From IMG/VR virus record IMGVR_UViG_3300029705_002947: DNA of 20,000 nucleotides. One strand, given 5' to 3'. This DNA comes from an uncultured virus (IMG/VR IMGVR_UViG_3300029705_002947). Taxonomy: Duplodnaviria; Heunggongvirae; Uroviricota; Caudoviricetes. Within the stretch, counting starts at the first letter, position 1; each line of letters begins with the position of its first letter. Under the pieces are notes generated by a model, which was not told where the DNA came from, made no database searches, and saw only the letters and a program-made list of their open reading frames with translations. Made by a program: the position numbers and the translations under genes. Shown in pieces: positions 6,772 to 17,284 of the stretch.

Positions 6772-6797
6772 ATTATCTTACCTCCTAAAAATTTAAT

Positions 6798-7481: not shown

Positions 7482-8914
7482 TAATAATCAACCTCACTTA
7501 TACTATAACATTTTTCTTTAAATACTTTTAATCTCTTCTTATACATATCTTTTACTTTAGGAAACCCTATATCTATAAGTTCTATGTGGTACGTATATTG
7601 TTCAGGTATTTCTCTTAATCTACCACATACTTGATTTGCTGTTATTGTAGCATTATAAGGTTCTAACATTATGTTATATCTTAAACCAGGAACATCAAAT
7701 CCTGTACCACAACTCTGTGGAGTTGAACTTATTATATCCCATGTTTTTACTCCTTCTTTATCAGCTTTAGATATTTTAGAATGATATATTCCAACATCTT
7801 TACTAGGATACCATTCAACTATTTTATCCTTAAGAATATCGGCACTTTCTATCTTAGAACTTAATACTAATGCTTTACCTTCTAATTTACCAAAGGTATC
7901 CATGACATATTTAACGACTTCAAATATCATCCCATTATTCAATTGGTAATCCATATACGCATGTCTATTGAATCCCATTTTAGTTTTTATTGACATCTGA
8001 TCTTCTAATGTTGGTTTGCTATTAAATAAAACTGCAACGTATTTAATATGTTTTCTTTTCTCTCCTCTTGTTTCATAACCATATTTAGCTATATTTTTAA
8101 AACATAAATGGAATACTCTATCCTCACCTATATCAGTTCTTTCAAATGTAGCAGTTAAATAAAATGTTTTATATACATTCGTATTTAAATCTACATTCAT
8201 AATCGATTTAAAATGTAAATGTGCTTCATCAAATACCTTTATACCAACATTTATTATTTCAAAGAATCTATTTAATGAATCCCATCCATACTTCTTAGCA
8301 TATGCTTGTATTGTACCATGATTCACTAAATACATATCATATCCTTTAGAATCTTCATCAAACATATCATCCATTTTTTTCGTACCTGATAAATCACAAA
8401 TTCTTCTCGGGTCTATATTCGTAAACTTTATTAAAGATTTCTTCCACTGATCTTTTATATTTTCTGTATGTGTTATTATAATTGCTTTTGTTTGGAGCAT
8501 ACAAAGTGATGCTATAACACAATACGTTTTACCATCGCCTGTATCTAAATTTAATGATAACTGTGAATAATCTTTAGTATATTTAAATTTACCATTTCCC
8601 GTTAAAAATGCTAGAGACTTAATTTGAATATCGTCTCTAGGTTCCATTTTTAACTTAAGATTTATCTTTTCGTATTTATTGTAATTTTTGTCAACATGTA
8701 CTGGACATTTTAGTTTCTTTTCTAGGAAATCGATATCTATACCCCTTGGTACTGATAATATCTCTTTTTCTTCATTATATTGTAAACCCCTAGGTTCCAT
8801 TCTAAAATATACTTGATTCCATACACATAAACTATTTTCTAATTCTTCACAATCACCTATTTTATAATCATGTATATCTATTCTTGTATTATATAAAACT
8901 ATCTTACTAGCCAT
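7481..8914 (-). CDS. Superfamily 2 DExH helicase (UvsW/Rad25-like, jumbo-phage type)
   Basis: Walker A LDTGDGKT, Walker B VFDEAH, motif III LTAT, motif V GTGFDVP, motif VI QVCGRLR. Confidence 0.9.
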   Translation of the reverse strand: MASKIVLYNTRIDIHDYKIGDCEELENSLCVWNQVYFRMEPRGLQYNEEKEILSVPRGIDIDFLEKKLKCPVHVDKNYNKYEKINLKLKMEPRDDIQIKSLAFLTGNGKFKYTKDYSQLSLNLDTGDGKTYCVIASLCMLQTKAIIITHTENIKDQWKKSLIKFTNIDPRRICDLSGTKKMDDMFDEDSKGYDMYLVNHGTIQAYAKKYGWDSLNRFFEIINVGIKVFDEAHLHFKSIMNVDLNTNVYKTFYLTATFERTDIGEDRVFHLCFKNIAKYGYETRGEKRKHIKYVAVLFNSKPTLEDQMSIKTKMGFNRHAYMDYQLNNGMIFEVVKYVMDTFGKLEGKALVLSSKIESADILKDKIVEWYPSKDVGIYHSKISKADKEGVKTWDIISSTPQSCGTGFDVPGLRYNIMLEPYNATITANQVCGRLREIPEQYTYHIELIDIGFPKVKDMYKKRLKVFKEKCYSISEVDY

Positions 8915-8916
8915 AT

Positions 8917-9261
8917 CTATCTCCCTTCTTTTCCAAATATTCCATCTCCTATTACATCTTCAAGTTTTCCTATATATTCAAATTTACCACCTATATAATT
9001 TAATACGTACAACTGATCTCTAAATACAGCTATGCACATACTATACGTGTCTTTTACATCGAATCTGCAAACTACACCTACTTCATTATAAGCGTCCATT
9101 TCTTCAGGAGTTAAGAATAACATATTCTTACCAGTTATTTCTTTAAATAACTCTGTATTCTTATTAAGTTCTTCTTCCTTAAATTTTCGCATTTCATCTG
9201 CTAATTGTTCTTTTAGTTTTTTATCTCGTTTAGCTTCAAAATCAATAAGATTATCTTTCAT
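8917..9261 (-). CDS. Hypothetical protein (114 aa)
   Basis: ORF with AAGGAG RBS; ends 2 nt before the helicase start. Confidence 0.8.
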   Translation of the reverse strand: MKDNLIDFEAKRDKKLKEQLADEMRKFKEEELNKNTELFKEITGKNMLFLTPEEMDAYNEVGVVCRFDVKDTYSMCIAVFRDQLYVLNYIGGKFEYIGKLEDVIGDGIFGKEGR

Positions 9262-9280
9262 CTTACCAACTCCTTTAAAA

Positions 9281-9316
9281 AATATAAGGTATTACACTAT
9301 TGTAATACCTTATATT
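9281..9316 (-). terminator. Intra-operon hairpin/terminator
   Basis: 16-bp perfect stem AATATAAGGTATTACA/TGTAATACCTTATATT, 4-nt loop, T-run on the minus strand. Confidence 0.7.
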
Positions 9317-9321
9317 AAATA

Positions 9322-9597
9322 CTATAACATTAATTTTATTTCTCTTGCAATTAATATACAGGGAACTATATTAGGTGCTTTATTAAACCAGATTTCGAAT
9401 ATATAATGTATCTTTTGTGCTAATATATCTAATTTAACTTCGTAATCTTGTTGTTCTAAATACCTTACTATAGTTCTAGCTTCAGGACCATATTCATCAT
9501 ACGGTCTGTTCTTTTCTTCAATTAATCCCATCATATCGTAATCAGCTAATAACACTGTTACCATAAATTCTAGCATTTCCTTGTTTCTTTCGTCCAT
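9322..9597 (-). CDS. Small helical protein, YugE/DUF1871-like
   Basis: YDMMGL..PYDEYGPEARTI..LAQKIHYIFEIWF resembles the DUF1871 pattern; AGGAG RBS. Confidence 0.7.
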   Translation of the reverse strand: MDERNKEMLEFMVTVLLADYDMMGLIEEKNRPYDEYGPEARTIVRYLEQQDYEVKLDILAQKIHYIFEIWFNKAPNIVPCILIAREIKLML

Positions 9598-9607
9598 AAT
9601 TTATCTC

Positions 9608-11662
9608 CTATTCTACATCAGCTAGAGATTTCATAAACATTAAATCTAATGGTGAATGTTTATGCTTCTTAAATGTTGTATGTGTATATAGTTGAGATTT
9701 TAGATAATCGTATGCTAAACTATTTGTTATAGATGGATTATCTGCTAATGATGCGTGCATACCTAATACAACATAATCTACAAATAATTTATTGAAATTA
9801 GGTCTTTCTAAATAATTATTAGCATCTCTAACAAATGATCTTAATATTGTTGCTGCATGTATTGATAATACACTGATTTTAGATTCTATTAATAATTCTA
9901 TAAATCTTTGTTCCATCATATCTAATGTTGGATTCATTCCTTTGAAATAAGATCCACTTAGAAGTTTATCCATTTCTTTTAATGGTTTAGTTAATTCGTT
10001 GTTCTCTATGTTTATTGTGAATAATGTTTCTTCAGATAATCTGCTAAACGGTATTAATATAACTCCATCTTCATCAGATTCTGTTTTCTTAATTATAGCA
10101 TCTAAATCTGGATGTATAAATAATTCTTTTCCATCGTTTTCAACTATCTCATAATATTCATCATGATTCTTAATGTTTCTCACTTTAACAAATTGTACAA
10201 ATTTATTAAAATCTGCATTGTCTAATAATTCATCAATTTGTATTATATTATCAAATACCATTTCATATTGACTTAAATCAACATCAGTTTCATTATCACT
10301 TAACATTTTAACTTGGTTTGCTTCAAGTTTAAATGATTTATCAAATGCATCATTAAACTCTATAAGACAACTATTAGTTGTGTTAAGATGTTTTGTTGAT
10401 AATATATTTTGTGATAATGGTCTTGATATAATCGTTGCTGCAAATATACCAACATCCATTCCTTTATTAACTTTAGATAAAGCTCCATAACATGTTTTAC
10501 ATACTCCATCTTTACATCCACATTTACCTGGGTCTCTAACTAATATAGTTCTTCCTATTAAATGTGTATCAGATTTCTTTAATAATTTAAACTCTCTCAT
10601 ACCTGGTAATCTATAATATCTTCCAACACACATTTCTAAGAATTTACTATCATTAATTGTTAATTTAACTGTATGTGGTGTATGACAATCTTCTGTTTCA
10701 CTGATATAAGTTCCAACACAAGATAATTTCATTAATAACGCCATATGTCCTGAACTACCCATTTTCTCTTTATTAGCTATTAATGATTTTCTTGAAGCTC
10801 CAGCATCTATAAAATAGTTTGTTATGTTACTAAAACCTCCAACTATTAAGTTACTATTGATAGGTATTGGAATTGTGTTACCTAATAGGTCTGATTTTAA
10901 TCCTCCGTTAATTGAGAACTCTCTAAGTTGTTCTTCTTTAATTGCTCCACCTGCTATTAACATTGGTTGGAAACAGTTTGGAGTTTCTTTTAATATCTCA
11001 ACTTCTTCTTTCATTAATTTATTAAGATGATTTTCTATATCTTTTGGTTGCATATCTTCTGGTATCTTAGTTCTTATTAATTCATTAAATCTTTTATTTT
11101 CTTTTGCAACTTTTATAAAACTATTCTCAAGATTTATTGTTATTCCCATAAGACTATTAAAATCTTTTGGTATCTTGTTTAATCTGTAGATTATATCATG
11201 TAATACTATATTCAATTCCATAAAACCTTCTTCAGTTTCTGTAAATTGATCTTTAAATGGAATTATTATTTTTTCATCTATATACTGTTTGATATACTTA
11301 TTAGAAATCTTTCTAGCATCAAATAAATATGTTATATCTAATTCTACTTCAACTTCTAATTCTACAAATGCTCTTAAGAATATCATATTTATTAATAAAT
11401 GTCTAATTTCCATTTCAACATAATGTTCATTGTTTTTATCAAATGTTACTTTTACTGGAAATTTTCTTATAGCTTCTATCTCAAATCCTTCTTCTAATAT
11501 ATAATATATATGTCCGTACATTGTTTTAAACTCATCATAATCGGATATGATTTTGTTTAAATCGAATATTTTATCTCCACCATAAATTTCTTCTACTTCA
11601 TTTAAAATTTGATTTTCAAATTCAATATATTTATTTAAATCAAAATTAAAATTATTATTCAT
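9608..11662 (-). CDS. rpoC: DNA-directed RNA polymerase beta-prime subunit, C-terminal half (split jumbo-phage RNAP; probably the non-virion enzyme, phiKZ gp74/AR9 gp154-like)
   Basis: Bridge-helix-like KEKMGSSGHMALLM, EDC, Zn-binding KCGC..VCKTCYG, trigger-loop-like VGIFAATIISRPLSQNILSTKH; no NADFDGD motif. GGAGG is 9 nt from ATG 11662 but only 3 nt from the track's 11668. Confidence 0.88.
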   Translation of the reverse strand: MNNNFNFDLNKYIEFENQILNEVEEIYGGDKIFDLNKIISDYDEFKTMYGHIYYILEEGFEIEAIRKFPVKVTFDKNNEHYVEMEIRHLLINMIFLRAFVELEVEVELDITYLFDARKISNKYIKQYIDEKIIIPFKDQFTETEEGFMELNIVLHDIIYRLNKIPKDFNSLMGITINLENSFIKVAKENKRFNELIRTKIPEDMQPKDIENHLNKLMKEEVEILKETPNCFQPMLIAGGAIKEEQLREFSINGGLKSDLLGNTIPIPINSNLIVGGFSNITNYFIDAGASRKSLIANKEKMGSSGHMALLMKLSCVGTYISETEDCHTPHTVKLTINDSKFLEMCVGRYYRLPGMREFKLLKKSDTHLIGRTILVRDPGKCGCKDGVCKTCYGALSKVNKGMDVGIFAATIISRPLSQNILSTKHLNTTNSCLIEFNDAFDKSFKLEANQVKMLSDNETDVDLSQYEMVFDNIIQIDELLDNADFNKFVQFVKVRNIKNHDEYYEIVENDGKELFIHPDLDAIIKKTESDEDGVILIPFSRLSEETLFTINIENNELTKPLKEMDKLLSGSYFKGMNPTLDMMEQRFIELLIESKISVLSIHAATILRSFVRDANNYLERPNFNKLFVDYVVLGMHASLADNPSITNSLAYDYLKSQLYTHTTFKKHKHSPLDLMFMKSLADVE

Positions 11663-11708
11663 AGACATTTACCTCCTATTAATATATATTTATTGTTATT
11701 GCTTAATT

Positions 11709-11746
11709 AATATTTCATTAATGATTTAAATCATTAATGAAATATT
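11709..11746. repeat. Perfect 38-bp palindrome in the beta-prime leader
   Basis: AATATTTCATTAATGATTTAAATCATTAATGAAATATT equals its reverse complement and contains two TCATTAATGA palindromic units. Confidence 0.9.
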
Positions 11747-11785
11747 CACTTTTATAATATATAATTGAAATTTAACCTTTTTACA
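11744..11785 (-). promoter_or_regulatory. Early-type phage promoter, copy 1
   Basis: Minus strand TGTAAAAAGGTTAAATTTCAATTATATATTATAAAAGTGAAT; 36/42 identical without gaps to 18120-18161; contains TATATTAT. Confidence 0.75.
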
Positions 11786-11947
11786 CAGCAAAAATAAACG
11801 TAACTTCCCAACCATATTTTTATTTTAACAACTTCTTCACTCACCTCTTAAGGAGGTTCGTTTTATTCTTAATGCTGCTATCGCATTAAGAAGTTGTTGG
11901 TATGTTGATAAATTATAATAAGGTTTTTATAAAATTTAATTTAGTAT

Positions 11948-11959
11948 AACAAATTAGTA
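11948..11959 (+). promoter_or_regulatory. Late-type phage promoter AACA-N6-TA
   Basis: AACA-AATTAG-TA; followed by a structured non-coding unit and terminator. Confidence 0.6.
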
Positions 11960-12069
11960 AGTAAAATGATGGTATCGGAATCATCATATTACTTGAAACA
12001 TAAACATCTTACCTCTTATTGTTATTGTTTTGACATATACCCTATGCCTATGATTGGCATAGGGGTTTT
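11959..12069 (+). ncRNA. Candidate small RNA (~110 nt) with anti-Shine-Dalgarno loop
   Basis: Promoter, 5' hairpin, middle hairpin with loop UCUUACCUCUUAU, terminator CCCUAUGCC/GGCAUAGGG-GUUUU; no RBS-supported ORF on the plus strand. Confidence 0.6.
12040..12069 (+). terminator. Intrinsic terminator of the candidate sRNA
   Basis: 9-bp GC-rich stem CCCTATGCC/GGCATAGGG, 7-nt loop, GTTTT tail. Confidence 0.65.
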
Positions 12070-12092
12070 AACCGTCGATTTTTCAAGGCAAA

Positions 12093-12104
12093 AACAATTT
12101 TGTA
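12093..12104 (+). promoter_or_regulatory. Late-type phage promoter AACA-N6-TA for the beta gene
   Basis: AACA-ATTTTG-TA-AGTGAATAAA, near-identical to the 2782 promoter context. Confidence 0.7.
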
Positions 12105-12141
12105 AGTGAATAAAGAGTAAATAACGAAAGGGTGAGATTTA

Positions 12142-15100
12142 ATGATTACTAGTAATAAATTACCATTATTAAAAAGAACTAGATTAAGACCTGTTATACA
12201 ATATGACCAAAAGAATAAAAGATATGGTTCATTAGTTATAATGAATACAATGGATACTAAAAACTTAAAACTTAAATTAGGTACTATTAATCTAGAATAT
12301 AATAACGTGGTTACTATGTGTTATGCTAAAAGATTAGAACAAATCAAGATAAGAAGTAAGTTAGTTAGAGAAAATAGATTACAAGGACGTCAAGCTTACT
12401 ATGATCAAATACGTGCAGAATTACCTTATTTAAATGGTATAAATGAAGGTAAACTTAATATGGGATTTAACGTATTCTTTGAACTTTCGTATGCAAATAC
12501 AGCATTTAGTACTAACTCATCTATGATAACAAGAATAGTTAAACCTAAAGAGTATTGGGAATTTATCATGCGATATATAGGTGAATTACCATTAGATAAA
12601 TATCCTATGAAATCAATGATAATGAACGTTGAAGAGTTTAGTAATGATTTAGTTAATGATTTAAACAATAGGGGAGAAGCTGTAAACCCTATGACTTATT
12701 TATATATCTTAATGAAAAGAGAACCCGAAGAATTTTTTAAATTAGGTGATATAGATTTTTTAATAACTTCTAAAACAGGTTGGACATTAAGAGTTAACCC
12801 TGCTGAGTGTAAGAGAACTATGAATACTGATGCAAATAAAGCTAATATTGCAGCATTATACAGAAAAGAATTATTTAAAATGCTGAATAGAGAAGATCCT
12901 GAAGAAGGAAGTGTATCTGCTGAAATAGATTCTATATTAGCACAAAATAAAGCTGATATAAGTAAATCCTTAATAGATAAATATGTTTTTGGTGCTACTG
13001 GTGATGCAGGTGTTCCTGAAGATGTTAAAAATAAAATAGAAGCTGAAGTTGAAAAAGTTTTAGATAAAAACCAAGAAATGGATGAAAATGATGTTAAGAA
13101 AGAAATAGAAAAAGACGAAAAACTTATGAAAGAAATAGTTATGGCTAATAATAAAAATATAGCTAAAACTGCTGCATCAAACAAACGTGATGAATTACTT
13201 AGAGAAAAACAGTTAGAAATCGCTGTAAGAGGAAAGACTCTTGAAGAAATATTAAATATGAAATCAGAAGAAGTAGAAGTTCCAGTTAATGATGTATCAA
13301 GTCACGTGGATACTATAAATAAAAATGTTACTGATATAAGATACCCAAATATAGATAAAGCATACGTTGAACAACTTATGGAAAAAGACATGGTTTCAAT
13401 GTTTACTGATATGAATAATAAATCTATAAAAGTATTTGTAAGAAATATATCTGTAGAAGATACTTCTGATATATCAAACTATAAAGAAACGTGGACTATT
13501 GAACTTGAAGACGAATTAAGGGTTAGACATAAAGTAGTATTTGACGTTCCTAAAATAATAGAAGGTAGATATCTATATTTAGGAGGTAATAGAAAATATA
13601 TAAATAATCAACAACTACTTTTACCGATAGTTAAAGTTGATCCTGATACAGTTCAATTAGTTAGTAATTATAACAAGATATTCATAAGACGTTACGGAGA
13701 AAAAGTTTCTCAAACTAATGAAAAACTTAAAAAAGCTTTATCAGAAGAAATAAAAGGTATTAGAGTTCAACGTGGTAAATTCGACTCTGAGAATGAAGGT
13801 TTTGTTACAACTATAGATTATGACGATTTATCTAAATTATTTAAAGAAGTTAATATAAACGGTACTAGAATAATATTCGACCAAAAGGAAATAAGACATA
13901 TATTATTAGATAGAAACATAAAAGGTTTAGAAGGAAGATTAGATGTTGAATTACTTCCTTTAGGAATTAAAGGTAATGAATATTATTGTATAGATTTAAA
14001 ATCTGACAATGTTGTTATTATAAACGCTCAAGGTAAAACTCAATCAACAGGAAAAACATTAGTTGAATTCATATTATCATTATCTCCAGCATTAAGTGCT
14101 AAAGTTGGAGAACAATCTGCTGGTAAAAAATATATGTACAGTAGAGCAACTATAATGAGTAAACAAGTACCAATAGTTTTATTATTATGTTACTTTGAAG
14201 GTATAGATGGATTCTTAAAAAGAGCGGACATAAAACACTATTTCTCAGATACTAGACCAAGATTAGCACCTGATGAAAACTGTATACAATTCCAAGATGG
14301 TTATTTAATATATACAAATAAACCTATAGCAACATCATTATTAATGAATGGGTTTATAGATATACCAACTAAAAATTATAATTACAGTGATTTAAATGAT
14401 AAGTTTGTTTATCAATCAATGTTTGAAACTATGTTTGGTAGAAGAAATATAGCAAATGCATTTGATAACTTCCAAGATAACTTTATAGATCCAATGACAT
14501 TGGATGTGTTAAAGAGATTAAATTTACCAACAGATTTAACTGGTATGGTATTATATGGAAATGAGTTATTAGCAGATAATCAATATACACATGAAATAAC
14601 TGTATCTAGAATAAGATGTGCTGAAGTTGTAAATGCTATAGTTTATAAAAACGTTGCAAGTGCTTATGAAAAATATAAAGAAACTGCAAACTTTAATAAC
14701 CCTACTAAGATAAGTATAGAACGTGGAGCTATAATCAAAGATATAATGAAACAACAAACAGTAGAAGATTATTCGGAACTTAATCCTATATATGAACAAC
14801 AAAACTTAAGAAAATGCTTAAGAAAAGGTCCTAGTGGATGTAACTTAGCACAAGCTTATACAGAAGAACAAAGATCTTACCATCCTGGTATGGCTGGTGT
14901 ATTCACATTATCTTCTTCTCCTGATGCTAACGTTGGTGTTAATAGATTCCTTACATTAGAACCACCTATAACAGATCCTCGTGGATTTATAGACAATAAA
15001 GCTTTACAAGGTAAAGTTACAGAATATAATGACGCAAACTTATTCGGTGTTGCTGAGCTATTAACTCCAGGTTGTGCATCTGGGGATGACAGTGTTAGAA

Positions 15101-16284
15101 CTACAATGTCATGTAGACAATCAACTCACTGTGTTGCTGTTGCTAAATCTTCTCCAGTTTTAGTATCAAATGGTGCAGAAAGAGTTATGCCTTATCATTG
15201 TACTAAAGACTGGGTATTTGTTGCTAAAGACAATGGTGAAGTAAAAGAATATGATGAAAAATTAGGTTTATTAATAGTTGAATATAAAAATGGGGAACAT
15301 GATGCTATAGATATAAACCGTATAGCTAAGAATGGTGCTGGTGGATTTAATATATCTAAACATATGGCTGTCAATGTTAAGAAAGGTGATAAATTTAAAA
15401 AGAATGATATATTAGCATATGAAGATAAATTCTTTAGTGAGAACTCAGCGTTTGGTAATAGATTTAATGTTGGTTCATTACAAAAAGTTGCATTATTATC
15501 TTCTTCATTAACTTATGAAGATAGTTCTTATATAAGTAAAAAACTTTCTAGAGAAATGGCTACTGAAGTAGTTATGCAAAAACAAGCGGTACTTGGACCT
15601 AACACAACTGTTGACTATATGGTTAAAATAGGTGATAAGGTTCAAAATGGAGACGAACTAATAAGATTTGAGAAGTCATTCAGTGAAGATGTAATCAACC
15701 AATTATTATTTAATGTTGGTGATGAATTCAAGGAAGAAATTATAATGAGTGGTAAAGAAAAAATAAAATCTAAATATTCAGGTGTTATAGAAGATATAAA
15801 AGTTTTCTGTACAGTTGAACTAGATGAACTTTCTCCGTCATTAAGACAAATAGTAAATCAATATTATAGTAAAATAAAGGCAAGAAAAAAATTATTAGAA
15901 AAATATGATGATAATGGTTCTGTAGTTAAATGTAATATGTTATTCAACGAACCAACAGGTAAAGTAGAAGCTAAAGATGGTAAATTTAGAGGTGCTATAG
16001 TTAACGAAGGTGTGTTAATAGAATTCTACATTAAAATACATGATGAAGTTGGTGTAGGAGATAAAATAGTTTTCTTTAGTGCATTAAAAAGTATCGTTGG
16101 TAGTATAATACCTGAAGGACAAGAAGCTTATACATTATTTAGACCAGATGAAGGAATAGATGCTGTTCTAAGTTGTAACTCATTAATAGCAAGGGGTGTT
16201 ACATCTGCTCCTAAAATGATAATGGCTAATAAATTATTAGTTGAGTTAAGTAGATCGTTGGAAGAAATTTATAAAAGAAAATAA
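12142..16284 (+). CDS. rpoB: DNA-directed RNA polymerase beta subunit (large fragment of a split jumbo-phage RNAP; probably the virion enzyme, phiKZ gp178-like)
   Basis: Diverged RpoB motifs: KGPSG, RSYHPGMAG, SSPDANVGVN, DDSVRTTMSCRQSTHCV, YEDSSYIS, VGDKIVFFSALKSIV, IDAVLSCNSLIAR. Long N-terminal extension; ends before the normal RpoB C-terminus. Confidence 0.92.
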   Translation: MITSNKLPLLKRTRLRPVIQYDQKNKRYGSLVIMNTMDTKNLKLKLGTINLEYNNVVTMCYAKRLEQIKIRSKLVRENRLQGRQAYYDQIRAELPYLNGINEGKLNMGFNVFFELSYANTAFSTNSSMITRIVKPKEYWEFIMRYIGELPLDKYPMKSMIMNVEEFSNDLVNDLNNRGEAVNPMTYLYILMKREPEEFFKLGDIDFLITSKTGWTLRVNPAECKRTMNTDANKANIAALYRKELFKMLNREDPEEGSVSAEIDSILAQNKADISKSLIDKYVFGATGDAGVPEDVKNKIEAEVEKVLDKNQEMDENDVKKEIEKDEKLMKEIVMANNKNIAKTAASNKRDELLREKQLEIAVRGKTLEEILNMKSEEVEVPVNDVSSHVDTINKNVTDIRYPNIDKAYVEQLMEKDMVSMFTDMNNKSIKVFVRNISVEDTSDISNYKETWTIELEDELRVRHKVVFDVPKIIEGRYLYLGGNRKYINNQQLLLPIVKVDPDTVQLVSNYNKIFIRRYGEKVSQTNEKLKKALSEEIKGIRVQRGKFDSENEGFVTTIDYDDLSKLFKEVNINGTRIIFDQKEIRHILLDRNIKGLEGRLDVELLPLGIKGNEYYCIDLKSDNVVIINAQGKTQSTGKTLVEFILSLSPALSAKVGEQSAGKKYMYSRATIMSKQVPIVLLLCYFEGIDGFLKRADIKHYFSDTRPRLAPDENCIQFQDGYLIYTNKPIATSLLMNGFIDIPTKNYNYSDLNDKFVYQSMFETMFGRRNIANAFDNFQDNFIDPMTLDVLKRLNLPTDLTGMVLYGNELLADNQYTHEITVSRIRCAEVVNAIVYKNVASAYEKYKETANFNNPTKISIERGAIIKDIMKQQTVEDYSELNPIYEQQNLRKCLRKGPSGCNLAQAYTEEQRSYHPGMAGVFTLSSSPDANVGVNRFLTLEPPITDPRGFIDNKALQGKVTEYNDANLFGVAELLTPGCASGDDSVRTTMSCRQSTHCVAVAKSSPVLVSNGAERVMPYHCTKDWVFVAKDNGEVKEYDEKLGLLIVEYKNGEHDAIDINRIAKNGAGGFNISKHMAVNVKKGDKFKKNDILAYEDKFFSENSAFGNRFNVGSLQKVALLSSSLTYEDSSYISKKLSREMATEVVMQKQAVLGPNTTVDYMVKIGDKVQNGDELIRFEKSFSEDVINQLLFNVGDEFKEEIIMSGKEKIKSKYSGVIEDIKVFCTVELDELSPSLRQIVNQYYSKIKARKKLLEKYDDNGSVVKCNMLFNEPTGKVEAKDGKFRGAIVNEGVLIEFYIKIHDEVGVGDKIVFFSALKSIVGSIIPEGQEAYTLFRPDEGIDAVLSCNSLIARGVTSAPKMIMANKLLVELSRSLEEIYKRK

Positions 16285-16323: not shown

Positions 16324-17223
16324 TTACATATATCTTTTATAATCATCTACATCTTTTTGAGAAACTTCTTGTCTAGGTCTCATTCTTTCTTCTGTGTATT
16401 CTAATTCATCATTATGAGTTGCATTATCAAATATCTCACTTATTACACTTGTGTTCTTTGGTGCACTATATTTAATTCTTCCTGTTTCAACATCTTGTAA
16501 TGCCATATTAAGAGCAGTTGTTGTAAATACTTCTACACCATAAACTCCTACATCACTATAATTTAATATATATGATGCAACTTTACAACAATATGCAAGT
16601 TTATCATATTCAAAATCTGTCATATAATCACTTAGATATTCTTCATATAACATACTATGTTCATATCTTAATGATTCTACATCTCTACCAAATACTATAT
16701 TTGTCATAGCATTTGCAACTTCAAAATATAGATTATCTTCATATACATTTAATCTATAAGCTGCTTCTGATAATGCTTTTGAATCGAAAGTTATTGCAAG
16801 ATTTTTCTCATCATTTTTTCTTCTATCATAATGTGTGAATTCTGGATGAGGAACATACACACCATATCTGATTATTATACCTTTTGCAGTTCTTAAGAAT
16901 GTTGTAAATTCTTTAACTTTAAGTTTACTACTTAATTCAATTACATAATCTATATTGATAGGTTTTTCATATAAATAATCTGCTATAATATAATTATCAT
17001 AACATTTTAATGCTTGACTTATACAACCTTGTTTATCTAATAGGTAAACGAAATCTTCCATAGATTGTAAATAACCAAAATCTTTACTATGAACATTTTG
17101 CATAACGTATAATATATCTTGTGCATTTACATATACTTCATTTAAACCTGTTGTATATTCTATTACTGCACCTTTGTATTCCATCATTCTTCTACATTCT
17201 AAAACATCATTTAATTTTAACAT
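16324..17223 (-). CDS. Hypothetical protein, weakly BRO-N/antirepressor-like
   Basis: 299 aa, GGAGGT RBS. EVYVNAQDILYVM and IIRYGVY recall BRO-N; YFEVANAMTNIVFG..LR..LSDY recalls DinD/antirepressor C-terminal domains. Function tentative. Confidence 0.75.
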   Translation of the reverse strand: MLKLNDVLECRRMMEYKGAVIEYTTGLNEVYVNAQDILYVMQNVHSKDFGYLQSMEDFVYLLDKQGCISQALKCYDNYIIADYLYEKPINIDYVIELSSKLKVKEFTTFLRTAKGIIIRYGVYVPHPEFTHYDRRKNDEKNLAITFDSKALSEAAYRLNVYEDNLYFEVANAMTNIVFGRDVESLRYEHSMLYEEYLSDYMTDFEYDKLAYCCKVASYILNYSDVGVYGVEVFTTTALNMALQDVETGRIKYSAPKNTSVISEIFDNATHNDELEYTEERMRPRQEVSQKDVDDYKRYM

Positions 17224-17284
17224 AAACAGTTACCTCCATTAATTTTATATTTTTTTATATTAACTGTATTTCTACAGATGTTAC

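What the first reader, a model, noticed from the sequence alone, without database searches (positions are those of the whole stretch)
11948..12069. Candidate late sRNA with an anti-RBS loop matching the phage's own RNase R, beta-prime and 299-aa genes
Seen: an AACA-N6-TA promoter, ~110 nt with no RBS-supported plus-strand ORF, then a GC-rich terminator, with a separate promoter for the downstream beta gene. The RNA can fold into a 5' hairpin (AAGUAAAAUGAUGGU/AUCAUCAUAUUACUU), a middle hairpin (AAACAUAAACA/UGUUAUUGUUU) exposing loop UCUUACCUCUUAU, and the terminator. Segment 11999-12020 (CATAAACATCTTACCTCTTATT) resembles the plus-strand, i.e. antisense, sequence at three minus-strand gene starts: rnr 6775-6787 ATCTTACCTCCTA (13 contiguous pairs, one G-U), beta-prime 11660-11680 CATAGACATTTACCTCCTATT, and 299-aa gene 17221-17240 CATAAACAGTTACCTCCATT. 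In the last two the match extends over the start codon. Known: Firmicute sRNAs such as RNAIII and RsaE use C-rich loops to block SD sequences. Inference: a late sRNA could feed back to shut down synthesis of the polymerase that transcribes it, or repress host RBSs. Caveat: any anti-SD sequence matches many RBSs.
Basis: partly seen in the sequence, partly recalled or inferred. Interest (0 to 1): 0.85.

Follow-up and report, generated by a model that had tools for sequence, protein, structure and literature searches.

The report
Conserved late anti-RBS small RNA unit
Just upstream of a giant gut phage's late RNA-polymerase beta gene lies a small, protein-less gene with its own late promoter that related phages keep; it displays the mirror image of a ribosome-binding site, so it is probably a small RNA that damps translation, though no transcript or specific target has been shown.

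Summary
It has an AR9-type late promoter (11948-11959), a 5' hairpin, an exposed UUACCUCUU, a perfect hairpin (12040-12064) and a second late promoter (12093) for the 1380-aa beta gene. The same layout lies upstream of the beta gene in all 8 related loci that hold upstream DNA. These give 7 distinct sequences in two clades, down to 38-41% beta identity. The 9-mer is kept in 6 of 7 sequences and the 8-mer in all. The hairpin is perfect in all 7 despite many base changes. No frame on either strand is conserved.

The specific claims are not established. The three named targets rank 2, 3 and 12 of 156 gene starts. An RNA with the same core and shuffled flanks finds equally good best targets (41% of shuffles), and no target co-varies with the RNA. 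The middle hairpin is found only in the window. The terminator's U-tract is weak in the relatives.

Most likely this is an independent late small RNA with a generic anti-Shine-Dalgarno seed; early-gene starts pair slightly better than late ones. No RNA evidence was obtained. The scan noted similar late anti-RBS RNAs in five other AR9-like gut phage genomes, but not this locus. This genome holds at least one more such unit.

The parts
11948..11959 (+). P1: AR9-type late promoter AACAAATTAGTA. The predicted transcription start is the last A, at 11959.
   Evidence: Motif found. The TSS rule comes from the AR9 dRNA-seq paper PMC5312081 (passages). The motif is enriched and positioned before genes. 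The same extended sequence, TATAACAAATTAGTAA, precedes ordinary genes elsewhere in the genome. It is conserved in all 7 homologous sequences.
11959..11994 (+). 5'-terminal hairpin (AAGUAA.AUGAUGGU / AUCAUCAU.UUACUU).
   Evidence: Minimum-energy folds. L007 keeps a 5' hairpin with a different inner stem and loop. L008 can form a different 5' hairpin (AAAUACAU/AUGUAUUU), seen by eye in the sequence, but its minimum-energy fold takes an alternative. Clade B has no local 5' hairpin.
12003..12017 (+). Exposed anti-Shine-Dalgarno core. AACAUCUUACCUCU is invariant in clade A. UUACCUCU is present in all 7 sequences and UUACCUCUU in 6 of 7.
   Evidence: Mean unpaired probability is 0.98 in the window and 0.59-0.93 in 5 relatives. 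The 9-mer is expected about 2.5 times per genome on both strands and is seen 3 times, so finding it in the same slot in distant relatives is not chance.
12022..12031 (+). UUAUUGUUUU, invariant in clade A (window, L007, L008). Its role is unknown. It is the reverse complement of AAAACAAUAA.
   Evidence: It is absent from clade B.
12040..12064 (+). Perfect 9-bp G+C-rich hairpin (CCCUAUGCC-UAUGAUU-GGCAUAGGG) followed by GUUUU (12065-12069). Probably a leaky intrinsic terminator.
   Evidence: The stem is perfect in all 7 sequences (9, 11, 11, 13, 15, 13 and 13 bp) although the bases differ at most positions. RNAalifold on clade A finds 3 pairs with changes on both sides. It falls below the threshold of the simple terminator scan. 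Other terminators of this genome have 4-9 T.
12076..12083 (+). Conserved CG followed by a U-run, 10-16 nt after the hairpin (CGAUUUUU). An alternative 3' end, or of unknown role.
   Evidence: Read from the sequences: L007 has CGUUUUUU, L008 CGGUUUUU, and clade B CGUUAUUUG. Pairing of this tail with the 5' region is not supported in clade A.
12093..12104 (+). P2: late promoter AACAATTTTGTA of the beta gene, 49 nt before the ATG.
   Evidence: It is conserved in all 7 sequences. This distance is typical for the genome's late promoters.
12126..12144 (+). Translation start region of beta (GAAAGGGUGAG ... AUG).
   Evidence: It pairs with the RNA's linker at -19.0 kcal/mol in the window; 5.2% of 400 flank shuffles do as well.
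12142..16284 (+). The 1380-aa RNA polymerase beta-like gene. Inferred to be the virion RNAP beta subunit, a late gene.
   Evidence: ORF. It is 34% identical to the PBS1-group 'RNA polymerase beta subunit' genes. It matches no PDB chain, including the AR9 and phiKZ non-virion RNAPs. Only late-type promoters lie upstream. The virion assignment is an inference.
11745..11770 (-). AR9-type early promoter (TTCAATTATATATTAT-N6-G) for the divergent 686-aa beta' piece (9608-11668, minus strand).
   Evidence: Motif family. The AR9 early consensus comes from PMC5312081 (passages). The beta' piece matches chain D of 7S00 at E 8e-50.
11790..11898 (-). A neighbouring, divergent minus-strand late unit (CCAACAACTTCTTAA plus hairpins). 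It is a separate repeat family and not part of the finding.

Best explanation
This is an independent late transcription unit that makes a small non-coding RNA.

Shown from sequence and comparison: the phage's non-virion RNA polymerase would start at A11959 from promoter P1. The RNA would run about 110-125 nt, to the hairpin at 12040-12064 or the U-run at 12079-12083. It has a 5' hairpin and a 3' hairpin, with a single-stranded linker between them that displays UUACCUCUU.

Inferred: this stretch pairs with Shine-Dalgarno regions of the type (A/G)(A/G)GAGGUAA and blocks 30S binding. The U residues beside the CCUC core can pair with either A or G, which gives it a broad range rather than one dedicated target.

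The most plausible role is to damp translation of strong-SD messages late in infection. These would be phage early mRNAs, such as the non-virion RNAP beta' piece and RNase R, and possibly host mRNAs. That would be an RNA counterpart of early-gene shut-off.
For: - P1 is a bona fide late-promoter sequence.
- The cassette form (promoter, RNA, hairpin, then the next gene's own promoter) is how ordinary genes of this genome are arranged.
- The unit is conserved in 9 loci holding 7 distinct sequences, in two clades. Conservation holds down to 38-41% beta identity, where other intergenic DNA no longer aligns.
- The 8-mer UUACCUCU is invariant and predicted unpaired.
- The hairpin is perfect in all 7 sequences with many changed pairs.
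- No ORF is conserved on either strand.
- The window RNA folds far better than shuffles, z = -5.59.
- A second unit of the same design stands alone between two minus-strand genes, so it cannot be a leader. It has a late promoter, 5' hairpins, an exposed UUUUACCUCCAAU and a strong terminator. It is 80% conserved over 214 nt in the 59%-identity relative.
- Early-class gene starts pair better with the RNA's 20-nt core than late-class ones. In the window's genome the means are -12.1 against -9.7 kcal/mol (n = 27 and 114, p = 0.001). In relative G002 they are -11.9 against -9.8 (n = 53 and 169, p = 0.0002).
- A generic ACCUCCUU motif shows no such difference (p = 0.31 and 0.43), while the 9-mer does (p = 0.035 and 0.037).
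Against: - No transcript has been seen. No listed run is on record as RNA, and only contigs could be laid.
- No gene start in this genome carries the exact complement AGAGGUAA.
- The best predicted targets are no better than those of flank-shuffled controls.
- The best combined rank across two genomes is within chance; 22% of simulations reach it.
- No compensatory change links the RNA to any target.
- In relative G002 the natural flanks give no better pairing to gene starts overall than shuffled flanks.
- The early-versus-late difference is about 2 kcal/mol. It rests on my own crude gene calls and promoter-based classes, and the two genomes are related.
- The tails after the hairpin are poor U-tracts in the relatives, so read-through into beta is likely.
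- A generic anti-SD RNA would need to be very abundant to matter.
Confidence: 0.45

Rival explanations
1. The unit is a regulator dedicated to the downstream beta gene. It could act in two ways. As a leader, P1 transcripts would read through the weak hairpin and carry an anti-SD that closes the beta ribosome site. Alternatively, as in P1/P7 c4 RNA, the short RNA encoded just upstream would pair in trans with the beta start region.
For: - The unit sits directly upstream of beta in every locus, while the gene on its other side varies. Beta' lies within 3-4 kb upstream in the window and L007 only, and not in L008 or clade B.
- Folds of the read-through RNA pair AUCUUACCU...UUAUU with AAUAA..GGGUGAGAU in the window and L007.
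- Duplex energies are -19.0 and -19.4 kcal/mol, reached by 5.2% and 5.5% of 400 flank shuffles. With a shorter window the figures are 1.8% and 1.0%.
- U-tracts after the hairpin are weak.
Against: - P2 lies between the hairpin and beta in all 7 sequences, so most beta mRNA would lack the leader.
- Pairing is weak in L008 (-14.1 kcal/mol, 21% of shuffles; -10.3, 36%) and in clade B (15-20% of shuffles).
- The cross-matrix shows no preference for the cognate partner.
- The beta start ranks only 17-18 of 156, 5 of 54 and 200 of 253.
- The A-to-U change in the L008 SD has no compensating change in the RNA.
- A sibling unit of the same design stands alone.
Confidence: 0.2
2. It is a structured RNA whose conserved single-stranded stretches bind a protein rather than mRNAs. 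One version is a mimic of the 16S rRNA 3' tail. Another is a uracil-bearing look-alike of the template strand of a late promoter (CUUAC...UGUU) that would titrate the non-virion RNA polymerase.
For: - UUAUUGUUUU is invariant in clade A and is unexplained by SD pairing. It is the reverse complement of the promoter core AAAACAAUAA.
- A second CUUAC follows the hairpin in L008 and clade B.
- AR9 non-virion RNAP reads the template strand of uracil-containing promoters (title and abstract of PMC5449584 in the listing).
Against: - The spacing between UA and UGUU is 8 or 13 nt, against 6 in real promoters.
- Clade B has no UGUU before the hairpin.
- There is no evidence for any protein partner.
- The idea arose after seeing the data.
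Confidence: 0.1
3. The unit has no trans function. P1 would be a spare upstream promoter of beta. The hairpin would be a stabiliser or a terminator for other traffic. The anti-SD would be a relic of an inverted gene start, or a minus-strand ribosome site with a micro-ORF.
For: - The reverse complement of the window's linker looks like a typical gene start of this phage: AAUAAGAGGUAAGAUGUUUAUG.
- Clade A keeps AGAGGUAAGAUG on the minus strand.
Against: - The minus-strand peptides are not conserved, and clade B has no start codon in 3 of 4 sequences.
- No consistent minus-strand promoter lies upstream. AACA-N6-TA fits only in L008 (read from the sequences).
- A relic would not keep an invariant 8-mer and a perfect hairpin across lineages at 38-41% protein identity.
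- U-G pairs in the L007 5' hairpin and the clade B hairpin favour the plus-strand RNA.
Confidence: 0.1

Closest known systems
AR9 (Bacillus jumbo phage) late transcription units read by the non-virion RNA polymerase
   Same: The promoter consensus AACA-(6N)-TA/G, with the last base as the start site, is the same. So are the AT-rich early-promoter type and termination at hairpin terminators (PMC5312081, passages). The window's beta' piece matches the AR9 non-virion RNAP chain.
   Different: No counterpart of this unit lies upstream of the beta homologue in PBS1 or in Staphylococcus phage SA1. DNA similarity to any deposited phage is nil. The passages of the AR9 paper that I read mention antisense and internal late starts, but no small anti-SD RNA.
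RsaE/RoxS-type and RNAIII-type base-pairing sRNAs of Bacillota (C-rich unpaired motifs that block SD sites; recalled knowledge)
   Same: It is a short RNA with an unpaired pyrimidine-rich anti-SD stretch, flanked by hairpins and ending in a terminator-like hairpin.
   Different: There is no Rfam match at gathering scores, and nothing meaningful at E <= 5. The seed is UUACCUCUU rather than a CCC/UCCC run. It is phage-encoded and driven by a phage RNA-polymerase promoter in a lytic late programme. Its targets are unknown.
Prematurely terminated 5'UTR-derived and intergenic sRNAs of Pseudomonas giant phages 201phi2-1 and phiKZ
   Same: In giant phages with their own multisubunit RNAPs, a start site is followed shortly by a terminator upstream of a late gene. 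One such RNA is conserved by position across genera, and its function is unknown (PMC11512511, passages).
   Different: That is a different phage group and host, with no sequence relation tested. Those RNAs share the gene's promoter, whereas here the gene has its own second promoter. No anti-SD motif is described in the passages read.
c4 antisense RNA of phages P1/P7
   Same: It is a phage RNA encoded upstream of the gene it represses. It pairs around the ribosome-binding site through exposed loops (review PMC12197685, passage).
   Different: c4 belongs to a temperate-phage immunity circuit and has defined complementary sites. Here the complementarity to the downstream beta start is marginal and not conserved.
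T4 RegB/RegA shut-off of early mRNAs at their ribosome sites
   Same: The proposed logic is the same: a phage product made after the early phase inactivates early messages at their SD or start region.
   Different: Those are proteins (an endoribonuclease and a translational repressor). Here the proposed agent is an RNA, and the effect is only predicted.

Membership tests
AR9-type late transcription unit | An AACA-(6N)-TA/G promoter with the start at the last base. | tested here: met
   AACAAATTAGTA lies at 11948-11959. The motif is enriched and correctly placed before genes in this genome: 47 of 62 intergenic hits lie 25-65 nt upstream of a gene start, against 3.6 in shuffles. The consensus is from PMC5312081.
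AR9-type late transcription unit | A mapped 5' end, late timing, and dependence on the non-virion RNAP. | not testable with these tools
   No RNA run on record holds the stretch, and only contigs could be laid.
Trans-acting anti-SD sRNA (RsaE/RoxS kind) | Homology to a described family model. | tested here: not met
   Rfam 15 gives 0 matches at gathering scores over the window. At E <= 5 there are only sub-threshold chance-level hits.
Trans-acting anti-SD sRNA (RsaE/RoxS kind) | An unpaired, conserved anti-SD seed. | tested here: met
   UUACCUCU is present in 7 of 7 sequences. Its mean unpaired probability is 0.59-0.98 in the 6 sequences tested.
Trans-acting anti-SD sRNA (RsaE/RoxS kind) | Non-coding: no conserved ORF. 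| tested here: met
   Plus-strand and minus-strand ORFs differ in length and frame among the 7 sequences.
Trans-acting anti-SD sRNA (RsaE/RoxS kind) | Specific mRNA targets supported beyond chance or by covariation. | tested here: not met
   Flank-shuffle nulls reach the observed best energy in 41% of 150 shuffles and the top-3 mean in 27%. The combined two-genome ranking is within chance, at 22%. There is no cognate preference.
Trans-acting anti-SD sRNA (RsaE/RoxS kind) | An intrinsic terminator that defines a short RNA. | tested here: inconclusive
   The hairpin is perfect and conserved. However, only 4 U follow it in the window, the simple scan does not call it, and the relatives have UUAC tails.
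Cis-acting leader or attenuator of the downstream gene | The gene depends on the upstream promoter, and the leader is continuous with the mRNA. | tested here: not met
   A separate late promoter, P2, lies between the hairpin and beta in all 7 sequences, at the distance typical for the genome.
Cis-acting leader or attenuator of the downstream gene | A conserved anti-SD:SD pairing with the downstream start region. | tested here: inconclusive
   The fraction of flank shuffles that pair as well is 0.052, 0.055, 0.21, 0.15, 0.16 and 0.20 in 6 sequences. No covariation was found.
Giant-phage 5'UTR-derived sRNAs (201phi2-1 sRNA005 / phiKZ) | Sequence or structure homology to those RNAs. | not tested
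   Their sequences were not fetched. Only passages of PMC11512511 were read.

The most novel reading that the evidence does not exclude
AR9-like gut jumbo phages carry a set of late, polymerase-specific small RNAs. This unit, the stand-alone sibling in the same genome, and the units noted earlier in other genomes would all belong to it. These RNAs imitate the anti-SD tail of 16S rRNA and act as broad sponges for strong ribosome-binding sites. Late in infection they would switch translation away from early phage messages (and perhaps host messages) towards late messages. This would be an RNA-based equivalent of the T4 RegA/RegB early shut-off, and it has not been described for any phage.
Probability: 0.2. 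Interest if true: 0.8.

Novelty: new member of a known kind. Interest (0 to 1): 0.55.

Why it matters
Small RNAs of lytic giant phages are barely charted, and none has a known mechanism. A conserved late RNA with an exposed anti-ribosome-site sequence sits in front of the virion RNA-polymerase gene and recurs elsewhere in the genome in the same design. It gives a concrete, testable candidate for RNA-based control of the early-to-late switch in phages that run their own transcription. The conserved 8-mer, the two promoters and the hairpin define exactly what to mutate. If it proves to be only a leader or a stabiliser, it still maps a conserved promoter-terminator-promoter cassette that is useful for annotating this uncultivated clade.

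Tried and rejected
- RNA evidence: no RNA holder was listed. Of 20 runs, all are on record or guessed as DNA apart from two guessed RNA runs, both kept as contigs. Laying 4 runs gave only contigs. One guessed RNA run has no contig over 11964-12035. This says nothing about expression. Strain variants in those contigs changed 11973, 11988 and 12089, and nothing between 11989 and 12088.
- DNA similarity to deposited phages: none.
- Rfam: none. tRNA or tmRNA: none.
- A strict DNA pattern scan of the viral contigs found only the 4 records already known. The 4 that lie on contigs over 150 kb are unrelated, so nothing was gained, and that scan was not exhaustive.
- The protein-guided scan of bacterial and archaeal genomes found no relative. 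The metagenome scan found one, L014.
- Pairing between the RNA's 5' region and the tail after the hairpin is supported only in L014 and L049 (5% and 2% of shuffles). It is not supported in the window (21%), L007 (11%), L008 (72%) or L047 (33%).
- The idea that the RNA is a mirror of the consensus gene start holds in the window's genome only. There the mean energy over 156 starts beats 59 of 60 shuffles, but in G002 it does not (38%).
- MAFFT misaligned the hairpins and clade B. I therefore counted stem pairs from per-sequence folds and built no covariance model.
- One search folded L007 and L008 from wrong start coordinates. replace it.
- The minus-strand micro-ORF, the plus-strand ORFs and a minus-strand promoter in UUAUUGUUUU were all rejected (and the sequences).
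- Literature: searches listed no paper on anti-SD small RNAs of AR9-like or other jumbo phages. Only listings and the passages named above were read. Supplementary tables of the AR9 paper were not opened and may list orphan late starts.

Full report
**Setting.**
The window is the minus strand of 59803-79802 in a 202,636-bp virus record with 28% G+C. A near-identical 227.5-kb record also exists.

The phage is a distant relative of the AR9/PBS1 group. The 1380-aa gene at 12142-16284 is at most 34% identical to their "RNA polymerase beta subunit" genes; tblastn matched 313 phage records, all below 60% identity. The window also encodes an RNase R (RNB domain, E 1.8e-115).

The 686-aa gene at 9608-11668 (minus strand) matches chain D of the AR9 non-virion RNA polymerase structure 7S00 at E 8e-50. 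The 1380-aa protein matches no solved chain. DNA holders of the stretch are animal gut and faeces metagenomes.

**The two promoter types hold in this genome.**
Passages of the AR9 transcriptome paper (PMC5312081) give two consensus sequences:
- late: AACA-(6N)-TA/G, starting at the last base;
- early: AAATATATATTAT-(6N)-G.

In this genome AACA-N6-TA occurs 62 times in 12,248 intergenic bases, against 21.0 +/- 4.4 after shuffling. Of these, 47 lie 25-65 nt upstream of a same-strand gene start, against 3.6 +/- 1.8 (the gene calls come from my own simple ORF caller).

A family TTCAATTATATATTAT-N6-G also marks a set of gene fronts. One copy lies about 100 nt upstream of the beta' piece. So beta' looks like an early gene of the non-virion polymerase. 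The 1380-aa beta has only late-type promoters. By analogy with AR9 it would then be the virion polymerase subunit; this is an inference.

**Checking the observation.**
All quoted strings and coordinates are correct. The RNA predicted from A11959 to 12069 folds into three parts:
- a 5' hairpin;
- a middle hairpin with the anti-SD in its loop;
- a 9-bp G+C-rich hairpin.

The fold is -35.1 kcal/mol, z = -5.59, and 0 of 200 shuffles fold as well. The second promoter at 12093 is 49 nt from the beta ATG, which is a typical distance. P1 at 11948 is 194 nt away; it is one of only 15 of the 62 hits that are not placed directly before a gene.

**Conservation.**
Protein-guided scans found the beta gene in eight further loci that include upstream DNA:
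- L006, identical to the window;
- L007, with 69% beta identity over the first 500 aa;
- L008 and L009, with 59%;
- L014, L047, L049 and L050, with 38-41%.

All carry the same layout directly upstream of beta. In order it is P1, a short structured region, UUACCUCU, a strong hairpin, P2, and the start of beta.

In clade A (window, L007, L008), AACAUCUUACCUCU and UUAUUGUUUU are invariant. Across all 7 distinct sequences UUACCUCU is invariant, and UUACCUCUU is present in 6. That 9-mer is expected only about 2.5 times in a whole genome on both strands.

The hairpin before P2 is perfect in all 7 sequences (9-15 bp), with different bases at most stem positions. RNAalifold on clade A keeps it, with 3 pairs changed on both sides. 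The 8-mer is predicted mostly unpaired, with probability 0.59-0.98 in the 6 sequences tested.

No frame is conserved on either strand. The minus-strand micro-ORF reads MFMFQVI, MFK, a 30-mer, a 13-mer from TTG, and is absent in three sequences. The plus-strand ORFs differ in length and frame.

The gene on the other side of the unit varies. Beta' is nearby only in the window and L007. PBS1 and Staphylococcus phage SA1 have no such unit before their beta genes.

**What is not conserved.**
- The middle hairpin exists only in the window, where a CATAAA insertion and a TTATTG duplication create it.
- The 5' hairpin is present in the window and L007. L008 can form a different one, but its minimum-energy fold takes an alternative that pairs GGAUGU with ACAUCU. 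Clade B has no local 5' hairpin.
- Only the window has a U-run right after the hairpin (GUUUU). The relatives have UUAC-type tails, with a CG plus U-run 10-16 nt further on.
- The simple terminator scan does not call this hairpin. Genuine terminators of this genome carry 4-9 T and are often followed at once by the next late promoter.

So the unit has the form of a normal mini-gene cassette, but its terminator is probably leaky.

**Targets.**
I ran RNAduplex between the 45-nt linker and 156 start regions (-30 to +12).
- Beta' ranks 2nd, the 299-aa gene 3rd, rnr 12th-13th and beta 17th-18th. A first run with other window limits gave 2, 4, 6 and 26 of 160.
- When the core UUACCUC is kept and the flanks are shuffled, the best energy is matched in 41% of 150 shuffles and the top-3 mean in 27%. 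So some very good targets are expected for any such RNA.
- In the relatives, the orthologues rank as follows: beta' 4/54 and 11/253, rnr 5/253, the 299-aa gene 3/54 and 79/253, and beta 5/54 and 200/253.
- A combined ranking over 90 reciprocal-best pairs puts beta' 2nd, rnr 4th, the 299-aa gene 10th and beta 27th. The best product is reached in 22% of simulations.
- No gene start carries the exact complement AGAGGUAA. The usual GGAGGUAA pairs through one G-U.
- I found no compensatory change between the RNA and any start region.

The named targets are therefore plausible members of a broad class, but they are not demonstrated.

**A weak but consistent trend.**
Genes assigned to early units pair better with the RNA's 20-nt core than genes assigned to late units. 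This holds in the window's genome (p = 0.001) and in G002 (p = 0.0002). A generic ACCUCCUU motif shows no difference, while the conserved 9-mer shows a small one. The effect is about 2 kcal/mol. It depends on crude classes, and the two genomes are related.

**The beta-specific rival.**
Read-through folds pair the linker with the beta start region in the window and L007. About 5% of flank shuffles do as well. The pairing is weak in L008 and in clade B, there is no preference for the cognate partner, and P2 lies in between. The constant linkage to beta keeps this rival alive.

**Siblings.**
The same genome holds, between two minus-strand genes, another late unit with 5' hairpins, an exposed UUUUACCUCCAAU and a strong terminator. 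It is 80% identical over 214 nt in G002.

A further unit has a late promoter, a structured RNA, AAACCUCCCAU, a strong terminator, and then the next gene's promoter.

Earlier notes of this scan describe similar late anti-RBS RNAs in five other AR9-like gut phage genomes. None concerns this locus. These are leads, not evidence. The sibling units I saw myself support an independent, trans-acting reading.

**Comparison and verdict.**
- The unit works most like the anti-SD base-pairing sRNAs of Bacillota, but it matches no Rfam family.
- By position it resembles the prematurely terminated sRNAs seen in Pseudomonas giant phages (PMC11512511, passages).
- It also resembles the c4 RNA of P1/P7 (PMC12197685, passage).
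- My three literature searches listed nothing on such RNAs in AR9-like phages.

I rate the existence of a conserved, structured, non-coding late unit as very likely. I put a trans-acting generic anti-SD function at about 0.45.

Noticed in passing
G000:C1:87363-87550 (minus strand of the record; about 7.6-7.7 kb before the window's first base in window orientation): A stand-alone late unit lies between two minus-strand genes. It has the promoter AACATATCTATA, two 5' hairpins, an exposed UUUUACCUCCAAU and a 20-bp terminator. It is 80% identical over 214 nt in relative G002, with the anti-SD unchanged.
   Followed up: partly
window 11790-11898 (minus strand); also G000:C1 around 22415-22470 and 173074-173285: A repeat family with 3 copies in this genome and 2 in G001. 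It begins with the late promoter CCAACAACTTCTTAA, fused to a hairpin. There follows a CCUCC...GGAGG self-paired hairpin and AGUUGUUAA. The outer inverted repeat AACAACUUCUU/AAGAAGUUGUU changes to AACAACUCC/GGAGUUGUU in clade B. One copy continues into AAACCUCCCAU, a strong terminator and the next gene's promoter.
   Followed up: partly
window 11703-11745: A 17-bp A+T-rich perfect inverted repeat (AATATTTCATTAATGAT/ATCATTAATGAAATATT) lies in the 5' leader of the early beta' transcript, just downstream of its early promoter.
   Followed up: no
window 11743-11787: The early-promoter block (TTCAATTATATATTATAAAAGTGAA) attracts many short contigs at high depth in all four gut metagenome runs laid. 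It is therefore a word shared by many phages or many sites in those samples.
   Followed up: no
window 9608-11668 (minus strand): The listed ATG at 11668 lies only 3 nt after GGAGGU. A second ATG at 11662 has normal spacing and is the more likely start, giving a protein of 684 aa.
   Followed up: no
L007 2849-2878: In L007 the 3' arm of the 5' hairpin (CAUCUUACUU) nearly duplicates the anti-SD stretch (CAUCUUACCU). The 5' arm could therefore pair with either, which suggests a possible two-state fold. In L008 the minimum-energy fold pairs GGAUGU with ACAUCU.
   Followed up: no
G000 gene at window-relative -111532..-109136 (minus strand) and its G002 orthologue 8029-10431: A conserved in-gene site AAAAGAGGTAATATGAG encodes KRGNMS. 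It is a perfect 14-nt complement of the clade B form of the RNA (AUAUUACCUCUUUU). It is probably kept by protein coding, but it could be an internal start.
   Followed up: no
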